DNA of 42,012 nt. It comes from a virus (taxonomy: Duplodnaviria; Heunggongvirae; Uroviricota; Caudoviricetes). Location: IMG/VR virus record IMGVR_UViG_2563366969_000002, one strand, 5' to 3'. Positions 1,660-42,012 of the stretch are shown here, in pieces (position 1 is the stretch's first letter; every line of letters begins with the position of its first letter). The position numbers were made by a program, and so were the translations under genes. The notes under the pieces are model-generated. The model worked only from the letters and a program-made list of their open reading frames with translations, searched no databases and had not been told where the DNA came from.

Positions 1660-2313
1660 TCAAAGTGGAGGCTCTGGTAGCGGCATCCAGTGAGTTACGT
1701 CATCCAAGATATTTCCTGATAAATACGTGAAAGCTCTATATTTTTTGTAATCAATTGGATTTACAACCCAGTTCCAATATGCGGCCACGATTTCACCTTG
1801 ACTAAATGCCAGTAACATTTTGGTGTCTTCCGGCATTCGATCACTACAGCTTATCCAACCACCCGGAGTTACCGGAGAGTTGCCGCGTTCTTTAATGTGC
1901 AAGCGAGGCTCACCATCTTTTGGTTCAGGCCACTGGCGTTCCATGTTGATCTTCAATTTATTTTCCATAGCAGCGGTAATTTCAGCATCACTGATACCAG
2001 CACGGCGCTGTGCATCCCACAACAGAAACTGCATATCAGCCCACTCGCTAAGATCGTCTGGTTCGGCTGCGGCTTCCAGTGCCTCTTTTGAGAGATGTTT
2101 CAGCGGACCAATGGGGCCAACGCAGCCAAATGTGGAGTCAGACCATTTGGCATGCTCGTGGCGAATCTGTTCGCGTTCCAGTGAGGCGAGAGCGATTTTA
2201 AATGCTGTAAGCATGTGTGCTTGATCGTTGTCGAGTCCGAATGGCATTTCATCTCGTGCTGACTCAATACTGGTAATCGTATTTTGTAGCCATTCTTTGG
2301 TAAAAGTGCTCAT
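1660..2313 (-). CDS. Hypothetical protein, DUF550/DUF551-like (ea22 region)
   Basis: 217-aa ORF; C-terminal ...YLSGNILDDVTHWMPLPEPP resembles recalled DUF551 phage proteins. Family assignment from memory only. Confidence 0.55.
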   Translation of the reverse strand: MSTFTKEWLQNTITSIESARDEMPFGLDNDQAHMLTAFKIALASLEREQIRHEHAKWSDSTFGCVGPIGPLKHLSKEALEAAAEPDDLSEWADMQFLLWDAQRRAGISDAEITAAMENKLKINMERQWPEPKDGEPRLHIKERGNSPVTPGGWISCSDRMPEDTKMLLAFSQGEIVAAYWNWVVNPIDYKKYRAFTYLSGNILDDVTHWMPLPEPPL

Positions 2314-8095: not shown

Positions 8096-9133
8096 TTAAC
8101 ACCCTTTAATGGGAGTTGAGATACGAGATATCATTGCTGATTCAATTATCCCACTTCTGACTTTATAGTCACCAAAAAGAGAAATTGAATCAGAAAGTTT
8201 CATGCTTTCATAAAGAAGGTCTGTTTCGTCTTTATCTATAAAATCAGTAACAACATAAGCAGGGAAGGTATAATCAGTGCCAACCTTTTTGCAAGTTACT
8301 GTCAGCTTTCCATCTGATTTTTTAATGCCTTCAATTTCAACTTCTTCTGTAAGTTCTTTGTTGGAAAGTTTCTCACGTGGGTTTCTTATCATTTCGGCAA
8401 TATCACGCTTATCTAATTCGATCTTTGCCATACCATTAAACTCTACTCTGTCAGCATCTGAGACGCCTTTCAACACCCCAACCACAGCATTTGAAGTATG
8501 GGATTGAATTCCCTCTGAAATCTCCCTCGCAGCTGCTGTGGCAGTATGAGCAGAAAGAACTTCAACCATGCCATCTTTAAGCAGTCTCATTTGCTCAGTT
8601 TGGCTGTTGGTGTCGTTGAGGCCTTCATCAATCTCAAGTTGCTTCATTTTTTCTATATGGCGATCTTTTTGTCTCGACTTTATCAGCCAAGCCCCAGTAA
8701 GGATCAGCGATATGAGAACGAGACATATAGCTTTCTCTGTTCCAGTCATACCTTGTGTTGACCTCTCAAATGCAACACCAAATGAATCAATTACATCCTT
8801 TATAGCAACAAGTAGGTCAGTACAGCCAGGCTCAACTTTAAAAATTATCTCAAGCTCTTTTCTATCACTGTCTTTCAAATGCTTGAGATTATCCGTTCCT
8901 CGCCTTACAAGCATAAACGCTTTATAAAGTTCGGTCTGAAACTCGCACATACCTTGAGCTAAAGAGGACGGTATCGTCCCATTATACCGGTCTGGATCAC
9001 CATAAATCTTGAAACTTACGTGGTTAACAAAATCAATTTTAATGTCATTGATAGATATTTGCTGACCTTTCTGAACTCTTTCTAAAAACTCTGAAACGTC
9101 GCTTAATGATGAGATATCAATTTGATTGTCCAT
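8096..9133 (-). CDS. Unknown membrane-anchored protein in the rexAB slot
   Basis: 345-aa frame from ATG at 9133 (MDNQIDISSLSD...), 23 nt downstream of cI stop, same strand; one central hydrophobic helix (AICLVLISLILTGAWLI); charged coiled-coil-like C-terminal half; AT-rich by eye; no family recognised. Confidence 0.7.
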   Translation of the reverse strand: MDNQIDISSLSDVSEFLERVQKGQQISINDIKIDFVNHVSFKIYGDPDRYNGTIPSSLAQGMCEFQTELYKAFMLVRRGTDNLKHLKDSDRKELEIIFKVEPGCTDLLVAIKDVIDSFGVAFERSTQGMTGTEKAICLVLISLILTGAWLIKSRQKDRHIEKMKQLEIDEGLNDTNSQTEQMRLLKDGMVEVLSAHTATAAAREISEGIQSHTSNAVVGVLKGVSDADRVEFNGMAKIELDKRDIAEMIRNPREKLSNKELTEEVEIEGIKKSDGKLTVTCKKVGTDYTFPAYVVTDFIDKDETDLLYESMKLSDSISLFGDYKVRSGIIESAMISRISTPIKGC

Positions 9134-9155
9134 ATCTTTTCTCAATGTTATTGTG

Positions 9156-9872
<717 letters not shown>

Positions 9873-11514: not shown

Positions 11515-12212
11515 AAAACATCGCCGCACAGATGATTAACTTTGACCGTGAGCAGATGCGTCGGATCGCCAACAACATGCCGGAACAGTACGACGAAAAG
11601 CCGCAGGTACGGCAGGTAGCGCAGATCATCAATGGTGTGTTCAGCCAGTTACTGGCAACTTTCCCGGCGAGCCTGGCTAACCGGGACCAGAACGAACTGA
11701 ACGAAATCCGCCGCCAGTGGGTTCTGGCTTTCCGGGAAAACGGGATCACCACAATGGAACAGGTTAACGCAGGAATGCGCGTAGCCCGTCGGCAGAATCG
11801 ACCATTCCTGCCATCACCCGGGCAGTTTGTTGCATGGTGCCGTGAAGAAGCATCCGTTATTGCCGGACTGCCAAACGCCAGCGAGCTGGTTGATATGGTT
11901 TACGAGTATTGCCGGAAGCGTGGCCTGTATCCGGATGCAGAGTCTTATCCGTGGAAATCAAACGCGCACTACTGGCTGGTTACTAGCCTGTACCAGAATA
12001 TGCGGGCCAATGCGCTTACTGATACGGAATTACGGCGCAAGGCTGCCGATGAACTGACTTGTATCACCGCGCGAATTAACCGTGGTGAGGCGATACCTGA
12101 ACCAGTAAAACAACTTCCTGTCATGGGCGGTAGACCTCTAAATCGTGCACAGGCTCTGGCGAAGATCGCAGAAATCAAAGCTAAGTTTGGGCTGAAAGGA
12201 GCAAGTGTATGA
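11511..12212 (+). CDS. P: Replication protein P (DnaB loader)
   Basis: 233-aa ORF MKNIAAQMINFDREQMRRIANNMPEQYDEKPQVRQVAQIINGVFSQLLATFPASLANRDQ... matches recalled lambda P. Confidence 0.95.
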   Translation: MKNIAAQMINFDREQMRRIANNMPEQYDEKPQVRQVAQIINGVFSQLLATFPASLANRDQNELNEIRRQWVLAFRENGITTMEQVNAGMRVARRQNRPFLPSPGQFVAWCREEASVIAGLPNASELVDMVYEYCRKRGLYPDAESYPWKSNAHYWLVTSLYQNMRANALTDTELRRKAADELTCITARINRGEAIPEPVKQLPVMGGRPLNRAQALAKIAEIKAKFGLKGASV

Positions 12213-12271
12213 CGGGCAAAGAGGCAAGTATTCATTATGAGAAACTTTCTAAATTTTTTGAGCCAGATTAG
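12209..12271 (+). pseudogene. ren: Truncated ren (first ~20 codons only)
   Basis: ATGA overlap with P stop; MTGKEASIHYEKLSKFFEPD* — first residues match recalled lambda Ren (MTGKEAIIHY...), then diverges and stops. Confidence 0.5.
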
Positions 12272-12415
12272 TGGTCTTGGATTCAGTTTACGTCTCAGAT
12301 ACTGAGAAAAATAACAATTTGTGATACATGTTAACATTATGACTTTTCAGGCTTTCACCAAATTTTTTTAAGAGTATTCTGACCCTTTCGTATCAATGCA
12401 TGAACAGGAATCTAT

Positions 12416-13435
12416 ATGTGTTATAGCAATGTTACAGATCGTGATCTTATGGGGCAAATTGCTACTAAATTAAATGACTATCGAAACCCTCCTCAAGGTG
12501 GCATGAGCATTGATCATGTTAATCGATGGATTAATCAATTTGAGTTAACCGATAGGCGATTTGTCTTAGAGGAAACGGACCGATTAATGGGGATTGGATA
12601 CTTCTCTGAGAGCGACTATCGCAGAGTTATTAGTAGTATCGCCAATGATGAGCAAAATGAAAGGTTCTTTCAAACCGCAGCGTTTCTCGATATCCAGAAC
12701 CAAGGCACCAGTCAATCTGAGTTTTTGGATTTGCTTCGAGAAGATTGTGTAGAAGAATTCAACGTTGTGACCAGACTGTCACAACGTCAAAGAGTTAGTT
12801 CATTCCGTGAATTTATTTACCTTGACGATGTTTCATTCTCAGGAGCTAAGGCAATCAATGATTTAACTTGGTTTATTGAGCACTTTGAACTCCAAAATAT
12901 TACAATATTGGTGTACTTTTTAGGCGGGCACACGTATTCAGCATGGAAGATAAAAAACCAACTTGAACGAAAATTTGCTGATAGGAATATTTCAGTTTGC
13001 GTTGGTGGTGGTGAGTTTGCAGTTGTTGAAAATCAACGCCGAAACAGTTCGAGTTCTGAGGTTTTTTGGCCAAAAGCGCAAAGTGTATCAATACCTGAAT
13101 GGGCTGACGGTCAAGTACATTATTTAGGAACATATCGTGACGGTTACGTCGCGAATAATTTTTTCCCTAATGAGCAGAGACGAGATCGTTTTGAAGCAAT
13201 TATGACAAAAGTTGGGTTTGATATCCTTGGTCAGAGTCAAAATCCTTCTGATGTTATAAAGCCTTTAGGCTTTTCAACTTTCAATGGTGTTGGGTTTGGT
13301 GGAACTATCTTTACTTTCAGAAACTGCCCCAATAATACCCCTCTAGCGTACTGGTGGGGAACTTATCTTCGAACGGGAAATAGAGCTCTGGATTGTTGGT
13401 ATCCACTTATGAAGCGTAATGTGTATAATCGGTGA
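12416..13435 (+). CDS. Unknown 339-aa protein, gene A of inserted two-gene module
   Basis: ATG at 12416 with AGGAA 6 nt upstream; AT-rich by eye; no confident family. Weak resemblance of FIYLDDVSFSGAKAI to the PRPP-binding loop of phosphoribosyltransferases (low confidence). Confidence 0.75.
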   Translation: MCYSNVTDRDLMGQIATKLNDYRNPPQGGMSIDHVNRWINQFELTDRRFVLEETDRLMGIGYFSESDYRRVISSIANDEQNERFFQTAAFLDIQNQGTSQSEFLDLLREDCVEEFNVVTRLSQRQRVSSFREFIYLDDVSFSGAKAINDLTWFIEHFELQNITILVYFLGGHTYSAWKIKNQLERKFADRNISVCVGGGEFAVVENQRRNSSSSEVFWPKAQSVSIPEWADGQVHYLGTYRDGYVANNFFPNEQRRDRFEAIMTKVGFDILGQSQNPSDVIKPLGFSTFNGVGFGGTIFTFRNCPNNTPLAYWWGTYLRTGNRALDCWYPLMKRNVYNR

Positions 13436-14049
13436 TCATGAGCTATAGACTATACCTGTTTCACAACACAGTTTCTTTCAGGAAAACCACCGAGAAATGG
13501 GGTGGTCTTTCCAACATGGCCAAAGGATATCCGCTCTTAGTTAATGGTATACCCATTCAATCGAGTGAAATTCTTTACCAAGCATGCCGATATCCAGACT
13601 ATCCAGATATCCAAAAGGCTATTATTACCCAAGGCAACCCTTATGAAGCTAAACAAACCGCCAGATCTTTCGAAGCCAAAACCCGTGCAGGTTGGGAAAA
13701 AAATCGAGTTTCGGTAATGAAATGGTGTGTCTGCGTTAAGCTTTGCCAGAACTGGGAATCGTTTTTCGCGCTCCTGGATAGCACAGGAGAGCATGACATT
13801 GTTGAGCACTCAGAGAAGGACCAATTTTGGGGGGCTAGTAAAGACTCCGAAGGTAACTTTTATGGTATGAACGTGTTAGGTCGTATCCTTATGGATGCGA
13901 GAGATGTTGCAAGAAAGAAGGGGCTTTCAGGGTTTGCTACGATACCGCCGCTACCCTTGGATAGGTTTCTTCTGCTCGGGGAGCAAATACGTGATGTTAC
14001 TTTCTCTCCACTACCGATGAATTCGGGGCAAAGCTTATCGCTTTTTTAA
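13432..14049 (+). CDS. NADAR / YbiA-like (DUF1768) protein, gene B of inserted module
   Basis: 205-aa ORF; start overlaps gene A stop (GTG 13432 in GTGA, or ATG 13438). Matches the recalled YbiA/NADAR pattern: SNM..(Y)..SSE.LYQA.....WE..RV.VM......K..QN.....LL.STG...IVEH...D.FWG......GN.LG.ILM..R. Confidence 0.7.
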   Translation: MIMSYRLYLFHNTVSFRKTTEKWGGLSNMAKGYPLLVNGIPIQSSEILYQACRYPDYPDIQKAIITQGNPYEAKQTARSFEAKTRAGWEKNRVSVMKWCVCVKLCQNWESFFALLDSTGEHDIVEHSEKDQFWGASKDSEGNFYGMNVLGRILMDARDVARKKGLSGFATIPPLPLDRFLLLGEQIRDVTFSPLPMNSGQSLSLF

Positions 14050-14086
14050 TGTGGCGTTGTTCCTTTCACTGTCGTGACAGATCTGC

Positions 14087-14110
14087 AAACCCGCTTTGGC
14101 GGGTTTTTTA
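14087..14110 (+). terminator. Rho-independent terminator after the two-gene module
   Basis: AAACCCGC-TTTG-GCGGGTTT stem-loop followed by TTTTTT, 38 nt after gene B stop. Confidence 0.8.
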
Positions 14111-14323
14111 TAAATTATGCAACTTATTGACTTGCTACCGATATGTCAGACTTTAACATAGCAGCTAAAATCTAGTACGAAGCCGACAAGGTAAACATTG
14201 ACTTGGTGGCATCTAGTAAAGCGTACAATGAGTGCCTGAAGTTTTATTCCGAGAAGTCGATAACTTTACCTAAAGGTAGCGATCGGTAGCGATCCGGTTT
14301 ATCTGAAAACAGGAGGGTTGAAA

Positions 14324-14527
14324 GTGACGATAGAATTTGAATCTACCCCAGAAGGGGCAAGGCAGGGAATGACACATCATCAGCGAAAAATTAGAGAACT
14401 TTTGGAAGAAGAAACTGCTATATGCGAGGACGCTCTTGAAGGTGAATACAATCAAGGTCGTCTGGATGAAATACATAAAGAGATAGCCTATCGAGAAAGC
14501 CAAATCGAAAAATTGAAGGTTATTTGA
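14324..14527 (+). CDS. Small charged protein, unknown function
   Basis: GTG at 14324 preceded by AGGAGG (14311-14316); ~67 aa, highly charged, helical/coiled-coil-like (…ELLEEETAICEDALEGEYNQGRLDEIHKEIAYRESQIEKLKVI). Confidence 0.35.
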   Translation: MTIEFESTPEGARQGMTHHQRKIRELLEEETAICEDALEGEYNQGRLDEIHKEIAYRESQIEKLKVI

Positions 14528-14724
14528 AGACATGAAAGCAATTTGATTTCCAGCTATCAACCCGCCATAATCATGTCATCGGAGCCTGAACAACTCCGGT
14601 GACTTCTGCGCTAAACGGGGACGTTTATGCGCACATACAATCCAAACTCTCTTCTCCCTTCACAGATGCAGAAATGCACCTGCGATGTCTTGCATCCAGC
14701 GTTTGATCTCTGCGGAGGTGAAGC

Positions 14725-17036: not shown

Positions 17037-17840
17037 CTATTTCTTTTTGGGAAGTGGATACTTTAAGCTAACATTTTGAGTTTCTATATCTCGTGGCCCT
17101 CGAGTTTTATCATAAAAATACCAGATATTAAATTTTCTCTCAGTGTGCCATGTATCATATTGCAAGTGATCCCAGCCTAAATATGAAGCAACATAGTTTG
17201 ATACTCTTATTTTGGCTTCAGATGAAGCTTTTCCTTGATATGCGCACATAACCGCACCTAAGAAAAAATCGGCTAGCTGAATGTTTTCAGATGCTTTAGA
17301 GTCTTTTGTCACTACACTGCTGATTATCCCTTTACGACCAAATTTTCTATTCAATATGTTATTGGCAATAACATTTAGTTCTTCATCAGCCTTTTTATAA
17401 CGAGATGCGATAGGATCAACTTCAATCCTGAAGTAACTGTCTCTTTCAGGGTGTGCAGAAATTACAGAGCTAATTTTTGTGGTAATGAGATTTGTGAAGT
17501 GCTTTCTCCTTGCCAGGTCATAATCTCCATTATGAAATGCCTTATTTACTATTGATTTTTCAACCACGATACAATGAAAAGCTAGCCAAGGAACTCTAAA
17601 GAATAAGTCGATCAGCTCAAGATAAAATTCAGAGTATCTTTTTGAATGGGCTTTTTGCCATTTTATTTCTTCAAAAAAACCATGTTTTCTGCGTAGTTCT
17701 CTGATTAGTTGACAGAAATCCCCACGGCGTTGGTACTTCATCCACAGACTGCCAAAGCCGTAGAAACGTTGTCCATCAATGCCAGATTCATCGCAAGCAA
17801 TATGCCAAATTAACTTACCAATGTTATCTTTTTCTGTCAT
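17037..17840 (-). CDS. Unknown protein, possible DUF3800-like; antisense moron between late leader and lysis genes
   Basis: 267-aa ORF, AT-rich by eye, opposite to late transcription; N-terminal IWHIACDESGIDGQ resembles the DESG motif I recall for DUF3800 proteins (low confidence). Confidence 0.65.
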   Translation of the reverse strand: MTEKDNIGKLIWHIACDESGIDGQRFYGFGSLWMKYQRRGDFCQLIRELRRKHGFFEEIKWQKAHSKRYSEFYLELIDLFFRVPWLAFHCIVVEKSIVNKAFHNGDYDLARRKHFTNLITTKISSVISAHPERDSYFRIEVDPIASRYKKADEELNVIANNILNRKFGRKGIISSVVTKDSKASENIQLADFFLGAVMCAYQGKASSEAKIRVSNYVASYLGWDHLQYDTWHTERKFNIWYFYDKTRGPRDIETQNVSLKYPLPKKK

Positions 17841-39084: not shown

Positions 39085-40734
39085 CTAGTTTACAGGGATG
39101 TTAATTATCTGAAGAGTTCCAGAAAGATCGTAAGTTCCCACCTCAATGTTTATAATATCGCCTTTGTTGATTGACTTCGCGGTCCAACTATAATCTGTTA
39201 GCTTTGTTGATTTGGGCCAGAAGTCAGTATAAACAGGTCGTTTTTCGCCTTTATAAGTAATTCTGAGATAAACTTTAGGACCCTGCTTGAAGTTATCGGA
39301 TGAAAGGTCATTATTCGTTTTAAGCACAATAAGGTCATTGCTTTTAGCAATATATATGCTTTCCAGAATAGTTTCCTTAGCTGGAATCATTGTCTTGCCA
39401 ACCTTGATTTCATTGGATTCGGGAAGCATGGAATAATCAAAAGTTGAGTTAGACTTTCTGATCCGCGAAACGCCGAAGTATTCACCATACGTATTCACCG
39501 AGTGGTACATATCAAACTTATCACCCTTCGACAGAAGTTTTGGGAAGTAAAAATCAGGGATCATGAAATCTTTTTTCCCCTGACGCTTCATTTCTGCAAT
39601 AACGCTCATGCGCACATCATTTTGCATGAATGCTGACTTATATGATTTGTACATGAAGTAATAGGACGGCGCGAAGTATGCTAACAGTATTGCAGCAAGG
39701 CCAGCAAAAAATAGCTTAATAGAAGTTCCGTGATAAGCCTGATTTAACGCAAAAGACATAGAGACAAGCATCAAAACCAGGGTTCCGTTGCCTGAGCGAG
39801 GCGGATACCCCGGAGCTGCAGCCATCATTGCTACAGAGAGAAGAGAGGCAGACAGGAACGCCGCTGAGCAAATGACCCTAGATTTCAACGTATCTTTCTC
39901 TACTGCATTCAAGCAACCCGCAAGCAGTGACACACCAATTATCAGCAGTGGTATCCATAGCATACCCATCATTTCTGGTGCGCGGCTATAAAAGTGCTCA
40001 TCAAGCCTGTCCACCATGGGTTTGTCATACCAATATGTAAAATACTTAGCTCGAGCAGCGTTCCCAGGAGATAGCACCAATATCGCATAACCAATGATGG
40101 CGCTGAATGAGTAGAAAGCAAATGAGTAGTTACGCTCTTTTTTAAGGAAATATCCAACAGCAAAGAAAATCGCTGGAGCTGCGACGGCAATAAAACCTGT
40201 ATTTTCATTTGAACATCCAGCAGCTAAGGCAAGGAGCAATGAAACAATAGACAAACTATACTTTTTATTAAAGTAATCTTTAAATATTGAAAGCAAGAAT
40301 AGGCATAGTATAACGTTGGTCCATAAGTAGTTCGCAGACCCAACCAACCAGAAGGTAGTTTGTCCTATGTTGGTATTTGATATCCAATATGTAAGGAAAA
40401 TAATTATGGATACAACAATGAACCCAGAACTCGACTGTTTATTTGTTGTGGTGTAACCGATTTTTGTTAAGCAAAATGTTAATAAAACTGGAGCCAGTGA
40501 ATTTATCGCCGCTCTGATGTAATGATTATCAATGAACAGTATAAATCCACTGATATAGTCAGCTATTACGCGCCCACTCCACGTAAAGTAGTGATTAATA
40601 TGGGATTCTAAACTTATTCCCTTCAATGCATATGCATAATCATCTGAATGCATTGGTGTATGCAATGCAATTCCAAGTGTTAATACATACATTAGAAGAT
40701 ATACAAGAGATATTTTTATCTTATCGACGTTCAT
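39085..40734 (-). CDS. Type-specific O-antigen glucosyltransferase (GtrC-like), polytopic membrane protein
   Basis: 549-aa highly hydrophobic ORF, AT-rich, directly downstream of gtrB; third gene of gtr cassette by synteny. Confidence 0.75.
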
Positions 40735-41650
40735 TTTTTATTCCTTTAATTATGTAACGTGGTCTTGATTTTACTTCGACATATATCCTGCCAATGTATT
40801 CACCAAGTACGCCAATACCTATCAACTGAATGCCACCAAGGAACAGAATAGACACAAGTAGTGATGGATAACCACGTACTGCATTACCGAATACCAGGGT
40901 GTCGAAAATCATCCAAGCTCCGTACAGAAACGATAATACAGCAACAATTAGGCCGATATAGGTCCACATGCGTAAAGGGACGGTAGAAAAGCTAGTGATA
41001 CCTTCAAGGGCAAGATTCCATAGTTTCCATCCATTGAATTTTGAATCGCCAGCAACACGCTCAGCGCGTGCATATTCCACTACATCGGTACGCCCGCCAA
41101 CCCAACTTAAAACCCCTTTCATGAAGAGATTTCTCTCAGGCATGAGCTTGATGTTCTCGACTACATCACGAGACATTAATCGAAAATCACCGACATTCTC
41201 TTCAATTTTTGGGTTGCTGATTTTGTTATGCAGTTTATAAAACCATTCGGCAGATTTTCGCTTCAAAGCGCTATCAGTTGAGCGGTCAGATCGCTTAGCC
41301 AGGACCATATCTGCTCCGCCCTGCCATTTCTCAATCAGATGAGGAATGACTTCAATCGGATCCTGAAGGTCAACATCAATTGGAATCACGGCATCGCCAG
41401 TTGCATGGTCTAACCCTGCAAACAATGCTGGTTCTTTACCAAAGTTGCGTGTAAATGACAGCGGAAAAACTAGCGGATCAGAAACAGCCAGAGCGTTAAT
41501 GATTGACTCCGTAGCGTCTTTGCTGCCGTCATTTATGAAAACAATTTCCACTTCATATGGCTTCAACTCTTCGAATTCACGTACCGTTTTATAGAAAATT
41601 GGTATCGCTTCTTCTTCATTGAAGACAGGAACGACCAGAGATATCTTCAT
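40721..41650 (-). CDS. gtrB: Bactoprenol glucosyltransferase GtrB
   Basis: 309-aa [51 protein letters not shown]... GT2-family; matches recalled GtrB. Confidence 0.92.
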
Positions 41651-42012
41651 TATTTCGCATCCCTAAAGACAATGAACTTTGAATAGACGAAACCGCACAC
41701 CAGGCTGATGGCGGAGAAGGTGACAAGAGTGACAATTGGAGGAAGTGAACATCTATCAGCAACCCACCCGACGACAACACTCAAGGTTCCCATGAATCCC
41801 ACATATAACAAGTAACGCATCGTTGTAGTCGATGCTTTGAATGTGAATTTTGCATTCGCGAAGAAGCTAAAGCTCACAGCTACTATGAAACCTGCGAAGT
41901 TTGCCAGAGCCTGATTGGTATGCGCGGCATAGATACATACACCAAAAACCACCCAGTGTATAAGTGTGTTCAGCACACCAATCGAGGTGTACTTTGCAAA
42001 TAGCTTTAACAT
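41650..42012 (-). CDS. gtrA: Flippase GtrA
   Basis: 120-aa [70 protein letters not shown]... near-identical to recalled GtrA; ATG at the last 3 nt of the window. Confidence 0.92.

What the first reader, a model, noticed from the sequence alone, without database searches (positions are those of the whole stretch)
12209..14110. AT-rich two-gene insert replacing ren: unknown 339-aa protein tightly coupled to a NADAR/YbiA-like protein
Seen in sequence: O and P are lambda-like and intact, but ren stops after 20 codons (12209-12271). It is followed by a visibly AT-rich segment carrying two same-strand genes whose stop and start overlap (gene A TGA at 13433-13435; gene B GTG 13432 or ATG 13438), closed by a clean intrinsic terminator (14087-14110). 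The backbone resumes with ninB/ybcN-like. Gene B fits the NADAR (YbiA/DUF1768) pattern. Gene A matches no family I can recall; FIYLDDVSFSGAKA is only weakly reminiscent of a phosphoribosyltransferase PRPP loop. Established knowledge: NADAR proteins are ADP-ribose/NAD-linked hydrolases, and in DarT1-NADAR pairs NADAR reverses guanine ADP-ribosylation of DNA. Inference: a toxin/effector (gene A) paired with a NADAR antidote, or alternatively a phage counter-defence module. The position and the translational coupling are classic for prophage-borne defence or toxin-antitoxin cargo.
Basis: partly seen in the sequence, partly recalled or inferred. Interest (0 to 1): 0.85.

Follow-up and report, generated by a model that had tools for sequence, protein, structure and literature searches.

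The report
Known DS-32 anti-phage gene pair
The two-gene insert is a prophage-carried copy of DS-32, a recently published and experimentally validated anti-phage system made of a phosphoribosyltransferase-like protein and a NADAR glycohydrolase, so the find is real but already known, although how the system works is still unsolved.

Summary

The pair is not unknown. Gene A scores above the curated cut-off of NCBIfam DS32_1 (Pfam PRTase-CE). Gene B scores above that of DS32_2 (Pfam NADAR). DS-32 was validated in E. coli by DeWeirdt et al. (Science 2026). The window's proteins are 52% (A) and 85% (B) identical to the tested pair. Both alleles sit at the same lambdoid site, between P and ybcN.

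I add four results:
- Structure models confirm a type I PRTase core in A and a YbiA-type NADAR in B.
- The PRPP loop and the NADAR catalytic residues are invariant across about 80 species.
- A NADAR gene lies directly downstream in 118 of 118 evaluable loci.
- In many phyla the NADAR is fused to HsdS, a DNA methyltransferase or an HhH domain, which points to DNA.

Most likely mechanism (inferred, about 45%): A is a PRPP-dependent toxic effector and B hydrolyses its N-glycosidic product.

Verdict: already known; low to moderate interest.

The parts
12209..12271 (+). Remnant of ren: 20 codons then TAG. Only the first ~29 nt are lambda-like.
   Evidence: Sequence. Megablast homology to lambda, 434, 21 and HK140 ends at window 12237.
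12238..14536 (.). Non-lambda, AT-rich insert (moron) between P and the ybcN/ninB region.
   Evidence: Homology breakpoints. GC 0.35-0.47. 12238-14320 is >=99% identical in 41 complete E. coli genomes, always chromosomal and in a prophage. No flanking repeats.
12272..12415 (+). Upstream non-coding leader of gene A. Blocks TTGTGAT and AAGTATTCT and the GGAAT Shine-Dalgarno-like element are conserved with the otherwise diverged DS-32-type allele. Candidate promoter/operator, unproven.
   Evidence: Alignment of three alleles. The consensus promoter scan found nothing here.
12416..13435 (+). Gene A = DS-32A homologue, a PRTase-CE phosphoribosyltransferase-like protein of 339 aa.
12812..12853 (+). 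PRPP-binding loop FIYLDDVSFSGAKA (residues 133-146).
   Evidence: Y135, D137 and G143 are 81/81 and D138 is 80/81 in PRTases from ~80 species. The equivalent motif is essential in Retron-Eco11 (PMC12746101) and in ShosT (PMC11961720).
13319..13342 (+). RNCPNNTP motif (residues 302-309), the signature of retron-type/PRTase-CE proteins.
   Evidence: Invariant in alignment A1. The PNNxP motif is described for retron PRTases (PMC12746101). Its invariance is circular, because it was the scan pattern.
13438..14049 (+). Gene B = DS-32B homologue, a YbiA-type NADAR N-glycohydrolase of 203 aa (alternative GTG start at 13432).
   Evidence: NCBIfam NF053876 259.8 bits (cut-off 240). Pfam NADAR 5.6e-23. 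85% identical to validated WP_032260665.1. AF2 pLDDT 93. Foldseek hits only 2b3w and 8bau. E44, R51, K72, W86, E123 and W131 are invariant in 77 homologues.
14087..14110 (+). Intrinsic terminator closing the A-B operon.
   Evidence: RNA fold: 8-bp stem AAACCCGC/GCGGGUUU followed by a U-run.
14318..14527 (+). 69-aa ORF of unknown function inside the same insert. It is not a conserved partner of A-B.
   Evidence: phrog_19187 2e-50. Annotated as hypothetical in SCU-485. Absent from the DS-32-type and A35 loci.

Best explanation
The locus is a prophage-borne allele of the DS-32 anti-phage system: a PRTase-CE phosphoribosyltransferase-like protein (A) and a YbiA-type NADAR glycohydrolase (B). They are transcribed as one coupled operon, inserted where ren normally lies. 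I put this identity at about 0.95.

Most likely mechanism (inferred, about 0.45): a toxin-antitoxin-like, abortive-infection pair that works by writing and erasing.
1. A is the effector. It uses PRPP to attach 5-phosphoribose to a nitrogen of a nucleobase. The base may be free or, as the DNA-tethered partners suggest, in DNA. This drains PRPP and damages nucleotide or DNA metabolism.
2. B hydrolyses that N-glycosidic bond. This is the chemistry NADARs perform on phosphoribosylamino-pyrimidines and on ADP-ribosyl-guanine. It keeps A harmless in uninfected lysogens.
3. Infection tips the balance towards A and blocks replication of the superinfecting phage.

Shown here: family membership, folds, intact active sites, obligate pairing, and defence by a homologue. 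Inferred: A's toxicity, its acceptor substrate, B's antidote role, and the trigger.
For: Identity:
- Both proteins exceed the NCBIfam equivalog cut-offs for DS32_1 and DS32_2.
- They are 52% and 85% identical to the cloned, replicated DS-32 pair. That pair lowered plating of Bas26 by 10^3.7 and of RB69 by 10^1.6.
- RefSeq already names near-identical (99.7%) copies of this allele as anti-phage proteins.
- Both alleles occupy the same site between P and ybcN.

A as an active PRPP enzyme and effector:
- It has a PRTase fold and an invariant PRPP loop.
- It belongs to the same family as the retron III-A effector, whose activation depletes PRPP.
- Relatives are fused to LRR, Sel1, HRDC or BRCT modules, as effector domains typically are.
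- ShosT, a PRTase toxin, needs its PRPP site for toxicity.

B as an active eraser:
- It has the NADAR fold, and its catalytic residues are invariant in 77 PRTase-linked homologues.
- NADARs act as antitoxins to DarT1 and YarT, and YbiA cleaves phosphoribosylamino N-glycosides (PMC11543638, PMC11125620).

Pairing:
- A NADAR lies directly downstream on the same strand in 79 of 79 evaluable genome loci and 39 of 39 viral contigs.

Link to DNA:
- There are 27 NADAR::HsdS fusions inside hsdM-PRTase-NADAR::hsdS-hsdR operons, 3 NADAR::DUF1156-methyltransferase fusions, and NADAR::HhH_3 fusions.

Decay pattern:
- IS5 interrupts A while B stays intact in two genomes. No case of intact A with B lost was seen.

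Divergence:
- B is always much more conserved than A. This fits an enzymatic, non-binding antidote.
Against: - No toxicity or single-gene data exist for any DS-32 allele in the papers read.
- The tested allele shares only 52% identity in A, and this allele is untested.
- Protection by DS-32 in the screen was strong for only one phage.
- No acceptor substrate is known for any defence PRTase. ShosT bound PRPP but none of the purines tested.
- PRPP fell by only about 50% with Retron-Eco11.
- Invariant active sites in both proteins fit a cooperative two-enzyme effector equally well.
- HsdS fusion could reflect guarding of the restriction complex rather than DNA as the substrate.
- No sigma-70-like promoter was detected upstream of A.
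Confidence: 0.55

Rival explanations
1. Cooperative PRPP-burning cycle. A and B are both effectors. A couples PRPP to a scarce acceptor base. B hydrolyses the product and regenerates the acceptor. The net reaction is PRPP + H2O -> ribose-5-phosphate + PPi, which starves the phage of nucleotides and NAD. Neither protein is an antitoxin.
For: Both active sites are invariant across phyla. Pairing is obligate. PRPP depletion is the only metabolic change seen on Retron-Eco11 PRTase activation. ShosT couples a second hydrolase (a PPase) to drive its PRTase.
Against: It does not explain why NADAR is fused to HsdS, a DNA methyltransferase or HhH. It leaves unexplained how the host avoids constitutive PRPP loss. 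NADARs act as antidotes in DarT1-NADAR and YarT-YbiA. Orphan B-like NADARs on mobile elements look like anti-defence genes.
Confidence: 0.2
2. Guard or adaptor model. B is mainly a regulatory or sensing partner. In many lineages it is physically part of a type I restriction complex. It holds A inactive, and attack on the guarded complex releases or activates A. This is analogous to PrrC embedded in EcoprrI (own knowledge). The short E. coli form would then guard something else.
For: A and NADAR::HsdS sit between hsdM and hsdR with overlapping junctions, and the fusion is the only S subunit in the locus. PRTase-CE relatives carry sensor-type repeats.
Against: NADAR catalytic residues are strictly invariant, which argues for enzymatic rather than purely structural use. 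About half of the loci, including this one, have a free-standing NADAR with no restriction genes nearby. Between alleles B changes little while A diverges strongly, which is unlike interacting partners.
Confidence: 0.1
3. Not a defence system in this context. It would instead be a phage counter-defence or metabolic moron. NADAR would remove host-inflicted ADP-ribosylation (DarT1-type) from phage DNA, or detoxify riboflavin intermediates. The PRTase would salvage nucleotides for the phage.
For: Phages carry orphan NADARs that neutralise DarTG1 (PMC11825919). TIGR02464 riboflavin N-glycosidase is a sub-threshold hit for B (71 against 73.7 bits).
Against: The cloned homologous pair protects phage-free E. 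coli MG1655. The pair is common in non-phage chromosomal and defence-island contexts next to GmrSD, HNH, RES and type I restriction genes. A lacks similarity to any salvage PRTase beyond the core fold.
Confidence: 0.05

Closest known systems
DS-32 (DefensePredictor; DeWeirdt et al., bioRxiv 2025 / Science 2026, PMC13092281)
   Same: A two-gene operon with the PRTase-like gene followed by a NADAR gene. Both NCBIfam equivalog models are passed. It sits at the same lambdoid prophage site (P | A-B | ybcN). The gene lengths are the same (339-343 aa and 203 aa).
   Different: Gene A is only 52% identical to the tested protein, with divergence concentrated in its first ~250 residues. Gene B is 85% identical. 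This allele has not itself been tested. The tested allele is preceded by an MT-A70 methyltransferase pseudogene and lacks the 69-aa ORF.
DarT1-NADAR (DarTG1) and YarT-YbiA toxin-antitoxin pairs
   Same: A transferase gene that modifies nucleobases is followed by a NADAR gene. There the NADAR hydrolyses the ribosyl-N bond and acts as the antitoxin. DarTG1 defends against phage.
   Different: The upstream partner here has a PRTase fold and should use PRPP, not NAD+. It has no ART fold or sequence similarity. The NADAR here is YbiA-type (Glu123 in the last strand), not the BC4488/DarG1 type (Asp).
Retron type III-A effector (e.g. Retron-Eco11)
   Same: The same PRTase-CE family, with the PRPP loop and the PNNxP motif. 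It is a defence effector, and its activation lowers PRPP.
   Different: Here there is no reverse transcriptase, no ncRNA/msDNA, and no C-terminal winged-helix domain. The partner is a NADAR.
ShosTA and PsyrTA (PRTase toxins with DNA-associated antitoxins)
   Same: A PRTase-domain toxin needs PRPP binding. The antidote does not bind the toxin and acts at the DNA level.
   Different: ShosT has an N-terminal pyrophosphatase domain and belongs to a different PRTase subfamily. Its antitoxins are DprA-like or RecQ-like, not glycohydrolases.
E. coli YbiA (COG3236 N-glycosidase)
   Same: The closest solved structure to B (2b3w, 27% identity, TM 0.76), with the same catalytic Glu, Asp and Trp set. It cleaves N-(5-phosphoribosyl)amino bonds.
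   Different: B carries an ordered, family-specific C-terminal extension (about residues 157-190). It is always linked to a PRTase-CE gene. YbiA is a housekeeping, LexA-operon gene.
PrrC/EcoprrI-type effectors embedded in type I restriction loci (own knowledge)
   Same: This comparison applies to the distant fused relatives only. The effector gene is inserted between hsdM and hsdR.
   Different: The E. coli allele has no restriction genes. The effector is a PRTase, not an anticodon nuclease. The coupling is through a NADAR::HsdS fusion.

Membership tests
DS-32 anti-phage system | First protein matches the NF053875 (DS32_1) equivalog model above its curated cut-off | tested here: met
   310.3 bits against a cut-off of 250, covering 12-334 of 339.
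DS-32 anti-phage system | Second protein matches the NF053876 (DS32_2) equivalog model above its curated cut-off | tested here: met
   259.8 bits against a cut-off of 240. 85% identity to validated DS-32B.
DS-32 anti-phage system | The two genes are adjacent on the same strand as one transcription unit | tested here: met
   2-nt gap or 4-nt overlap, with a single terminator after B. The same arrangement is found in 118 of 118 loci.
DS-32 anti-phage system | Protects bacteria against phage when expressed | not testable with these tools
   Shown only for the 52%/85% homologue.
Type I phosphoribosyltransferase / Pfam PRTase-CE | PRTase core fold and PRPP-binding loop (hydrophobic x4, DD, xxxSG) | tested here: met
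Type I phosphoribosyltransferase / Pfam PRTase-CE | Binds PRPP and transfers phosphoribose to an acceptor | not testable with these tools
   Needs biochemistry. The acceptor is unknown for all defence PRTases.
NADAR superfamily, YbiA subfamily | NADAR fold | tested here: met
   PF08719 at 82.4 bits (cut-off 35.1). The model matches only 2b3w and 8bau.
NADAR superfamily, YbiA subfamily | Catalytic and ligand-binding residues (E43, K50, K75, R79, W89, R93, E125, D130, W133 of P. nicotianae NADAR), with Glu rather than Asp or His in the last strand | tested here: met
   B has E44, R51, K72, R76, W86, R90, E123, D128 and W131. Residue roles are from PMC11543638.
DarTG1 (DarT1-NADAR) | Upstream partner is an ADP-ribosyltransferase (DarT fold) | tested here: not met
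DarTG1 (DarT1-NADAR) | NADAR of the BC4488 type (Asp in the last strand, N-terminal DNA-binding extension) | tested here: not met
   Glu123 is present in 77 of 77. The extension is C-terminal.
Retron type III-A | Reverse transcriptase and ncRNA next to the PRTase; C-terminal winged-helix domain on the effector | tested here: not met
   The neighbours are P and ybcN. No Rfam family is found in the locus. The protein ends 5 residues after the PRTase-CE domain.
Toxin-antitoxin system (type IV-like) | A is toxic alone and is neutralised by B | not testable with these tools
   Only indirect evidence: IS5-disrupted A with intact B, and never the reverse.

The most novel reading that the evidence does not exclude
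PRTase-CE proteins may be PRPP-dependent nucleic-acid modifiers. They would attach 5-phosphoribose to DNA bases, and the linked NADAR would erase the mark. DS-32 would then be the first immunity system based on reversible DNA phosphoribosylation. In many phyla this writer/eraser pair is wired into type I restriction enzymes through NADAR::HsdS fusions. The same reading would also explain the DNA-damage phenotypes of ShosT and why no free-base acceptor has been found.
Probability: 0.2. Interest if true: 0.8.

Novelty: already known. Interest (0 to 1): 0.3.

Why it matters
As a sequence feature this needs no new name. It is DS-32, published in 2025/2026 and already built into NCBI annotation.

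Its remaining value lies in the mechanism, which is unsolved. Three results here narrow the hypotheses to a PRPP-dependent write/erase chemistry acting at or near DNA:
- The PRTase-NADAR pairing is obligate.
- Both active sites are invariant.
- The NADAR is repeatedly fused to DNA-targeting modules (HsdS, a DNA methyltransferase, HhH).

If that is right, it links DS-32, retron III-A, ShosTA and type I restriction under one theme.

The locus also illustrates the ren/nin region of lambdoid prophages as an exchange site for defence cargo.

Tried and rejected
- Nucleotide search of 50,697 phage records found only the flanks, not the insert.
- A sequence search of PDB with gene A gave nothing, even at E <= 10. 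The fold had to be obtained by modelling.
- The literature search for 'PRTase-CE' returned no paper. No paper listed by the two searches that combined NADAR with HsdS/restriction terms linked NADAR to type I restriction subunits.
- The consensus promoter scan found no promoter upstream of A, and the terminator scan missed the real hairpin.
- Rfam found no RNA family in the locus, and no retron ncRNA.
- The repeat search found no flanking direct or inverted repeats that would indicate transposition.
- The DarTG1 reading was rejected: A has no ART fold and the NADAR has Glu rather than Asp.
- The retron reading was rejected: there is no RT, msr/msd or wHTH.
- HincII-like (0.11) and RT_VI (0.009) hits for A were dismissed as chance.
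- My first ORF-based census listed 4 loci without a NADAR. tblastn showed that three do have one, running off contig ends, and that the fourth contig ends 81 nt after A.
Full report
**Observation**

The window is a lambdoid prophage with lambda-type cI, cro, cII, O and P. P ends at 12212. The ren ATG at 12209 opens a frame that stops after 20 codons, at TAG 12269-12271.

Megablast against phage genomes shows that identity to lambda, 434, 21 and HK140 stops at window 12237. It resumes only at about 14537. The DNA in between has GC of 0.35-0.47, against 0.52-0.57 in O and P.

This stretch carries:
- gene A (12416-13435, 339 aa);
- gene B (ATG 13438, 203 aa; an in-frame GTG at 13432 overlaps the TGA of A);
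- an 8-bp G+C-rich hairpin with a U-run at 14087-14110;
- a 69-aa ORF (14318-14527).

The only refinement is that the foreign DNA extends about 430 nt beyond the terminator.

**What it is**

Gene A matches Pfam PRTase-CE (PF24390, 3e-39) over residues 35-334. It also matches the PADLOC model of retron type III-A PRTase effectors (1e-9). It matches the NCBIfam equivalog NF053875, 'DS32_1 phosphoribosyltransferase-like anti-phage protein', at 310 bits against a cut-off of 250.

Gene B matches Pfam NADAR (5.6e-23). It also matches NF053876, 'DS32_2 NADAR family anti-phage protein', at 259.8 bits against a cut-off of 240.

DS-32 is one of the systems found and validated with DefensePredictor (bioRxiv 10.1101/2025.01.08.631726; Science 2026, PMC13092281). 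The authors describe it as a PRTase plus a NADAR protein. They propose that it works differently from DarTG and may reflect toxin-antitoxin partner swapping.

Their supplement gives the cloned sequences, WP_000097610.1 and WP_032260665.1. The window's proteins are 52% and 85% identical to them over the full length. In the primary screen the system (code NADR) reduced plating of Bas26 by 10^3.7 and of RB69 by 10^1.6. It had small effects on SECphi18 and T5. It is listed as replicated.

**Distribution in E. coli**

The insert occurs in 63 of 5,426 complete genomes. It is always chromosomal, and 41 copies are >=99% identical. Recent RefSeq annotations of 99.7%-identical copies already read 'phosphoribosyltransferase-like anti-phage protein | NADAR family anti-phage protein'.

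In strain SCU-485 the 100% identical insert lies in a prophage with a different immunity region but at the same place: P | A | B | small ORF | ybcN. The validated DS-32A allele (WP_000097610.1) sits at that same place in other prophages, preceded by an MT-A70 methyltransferase pseudogene. A third allele, 94% identical, is in strain A35.

The P-to-ybcN interval is therefore an exchange site for alleles of this module. No flanking repeats mark the junctions.

**Folds and active sites**

The PRPP loop FIYLDDVSFSG (133-143) is canonical. Across 81 homologues from about 80 species, Y135, D137 and G143 are invariant and D138 is present in 80 of 81.

The RNCPNNTP motif corresponds to the PNNxP signature reported for retron PRTases. 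Its invariance in my sample is circular, because it was the scan pattern.

The model of B (pLDDT 93) matches only E. coli YbiA (2b3w) and Phytophthora NADAR bound to ADP-ribose (8bau). The residues that bind ADP-ribose and catalyse hydrolysis in 8bau (PMC11543638) are all present in B: E44, R51, K72, R76, W86, R90, E123, D128 and W131. E44, R51, K72, W86, E123 and W131 are invariant in 77 PRTase-linked NADARs. Glu123 places B in the YbiA subfamily, not the DarT1-associated BC4488 subfamily.

**Co-occurrence**

A scan of one genome per species found 167 relatives of A, and the best 80 were fetched. In 76 of them a strong NADAR homologue (E <= 1e-43) starts within about 100 nt downstream on the same strand. 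Three of the other four also have one, cut by contig ends. The fourth contig ends 81 nt after A.

All 39 viral-contig relatives have the NADAR as well. That makes 118 of 118 evaluable loci.

In the reverse direction, two of three B-like NADARs that I looked up are preceded by PRTase-CE. The third is an orphan in a ThiF/E2/JAB mobile element.

At every divergence tier B is more conserved than A. The A/B identities are 92/94, 67/88, 52/85, 48/70, 37/56 and 30/46 percent.

**A clue from distant relatives**

In 27 of the 76 genome loci the NADAR is the N-terminal domain of a full type I specificity subunit (HsdS). The operon reads hsdM - PRTase-CE - NADAR::hsdS - hsdR, with overlapping junctions.

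In three loci the NADAR is fused to a DUF1156 N6-adenine DNA methyltransferase. In at least two it is fused to a ComEA-type HhH_3 DNA-binding domain.

PRTase-CE proteins elsewhere carry several kinds of added module:
- LRR or Sel1 repeats at the N-terminus;
- HRDC at the C-terminus;
- BRCT at the N-terminus;
- a winged helix in retrons.

No paper listed by the two searches that combined NADAR with restriction-subunit terms described these fusions. That is a limited search and not proof of novelty.

**Mechanism**

Established facts from the literature:
- PRTases make N-glycosidic bonds from PRPP.
- ShosT needs its PRPP site for toxicity, binds none of the purines tested, and causes DNA lesions that a DNA-binding antitoxin counteracts.
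- NADARs hydrolyse ribosyl-N bonds on guanine or cytosine in DNA and RNA, and on phosphoribosylamino-pyrimidines.
- NADARs serve as antitoxins to DarT1 and YarT.

Combined with the results above, the most economical model is a write/erase toxin-antidote pair. A phosphoribosylates a base, plausibly in DNA, and consumes PRPP. B removes the adduct. Infection shifts the balance.

Indirect support comes from three points:
- IS5 disrupts A while B stays intact in two genomes, and the reverse is never seen.
- Orphan B-like NADARs occur on mobile elements.
- The asymmetric divergence of A and B is what a non-binding enzymatic antidote would allow.

I give this model about 45%.

The alternatives, with rough weights, are:
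- a cooperative PRPP-burning cycle, about 20%;
- a guard or adaptor role for B, about 10%;
- a counter-defence or metabolic role, about 5%. This one is contradicted by protection in phage-free MG1655.

None of these can be decided without experiments.

**Comparison and verdict**

The locus is a member of DS-32 by every sequence criterion I could test. It works like, but is not a member of, DarTG1, because A has no ART fold and the NADAR is the Glu type. It is not a retron III-A system either, because it has no RT, ncRNA or wHTH.

The system type, its domain composition and its defence function are published and encoded in NCBI's naming models. The finding is therefore already known. This allele is an untested, fairly divergent variant in gene A.

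Interest is low to moderate. It rests on the unsolved mechanism and on the DNA-tethering clue.

Noticed in passing
L007:4149-12071 (also L032, L034, L042, L057, L078 and about 20 more): In distant bacteria the PRTase-CE gene sits inside a type I restriction operon: hsdM - PRTase-CE - NADAR::hsdS - hsdR. The NADAR is fused to the only specificity subunit. In L015, L051 and L079 it is fused to a DUF1156 DNA methyltransferase, and in L055 and L056 to an HhH_3 domain.
   Followed up: partly
window 8096-9220 (-): An AT-rich ORF of up to 374 aa lies between cI and N, where lambda carries rexAB. It has no Pfam or PADLOC match. It is an orphan moron and could be another defence gene.
   Followed up: partly
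window 17037-17840 (-): A DUF3800 protein matches PADLOC candidate PDC-M04A (6.5e-35). It is on the opposite strand, just downstream of the Q antiterminator gene. The same gene is at this site in SCU-485 and A35.
   Followed up: partly
window 39085-42012 (-): An AT-rich three-gene block at the prophage end: a 549-aa DUF6056 membrane protein, a 309-aa family-2 glycosyltransferase and a 120-aa ORF. It looks like a gtrABC-type O-antigen modification (serotype-conversion) cassette.
   Followed up: partly
window 14318-14527 (+): A 69-aa ORF (phrog_19187, unknown function) travels with this allele of the insert. It is absent from the DS-32-type allele. In strain A35 it is replaced by a holE-like (Pol III theta) fragment.
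   Followed up: partly
window 12272-12415; L082:6022-6232: The leaders upstream of gene A in two otherwise diverged alleles share short blocks (ATTGTGAT, AAGTATTCT, GTGAA-AGGAAT). The window also has a perfect inverted repeat TCTCAG-ATA-CTGAGA at 12294-12308. These are possible regulatory sites.
   Followed up: no
NZ_CP122823.1 and NZ_CP122801.1 (hits H34, H35): In two ETEC genomes an IS5-family element (ISKpn26) splits gene A while gene B stays intact. In NZ_OW968011.1 only the first 636 nt of the insert remain.
   Followed up: no
L091-L093:5001-5597: A NADAR 48% identical to gene B lies without any PRTase in a mobile-element cluster with ThiF, E2 and JAB genes and DUF2958. It may be an orphan 'antidote' used as anti-defence.
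   Followed up: no
P0216, P0246, P0224, P0050: PRTase-CE domains are fused to LRR repeats, Sel1 repeats, an HRDC domain or a BRCT domain. This suggests the domain is a portable effector joined to varied sensor or nucleic-acid-binding modules.
   Followed up: partly
L082 and L083:5437-6021: The validated DS-32 allele is preceded by an MT-A70 family DNA methyltransferase pseudogene (internal stop), directly after P.
   Followed up: no
window 1660-2313 (-): A dATP/dGTP pyrophosphohydrolase domain fused to DUF551 lies in the early-left region. It is another nucleotide-pool enzyme carried by the same prophage.
   Followed up: no
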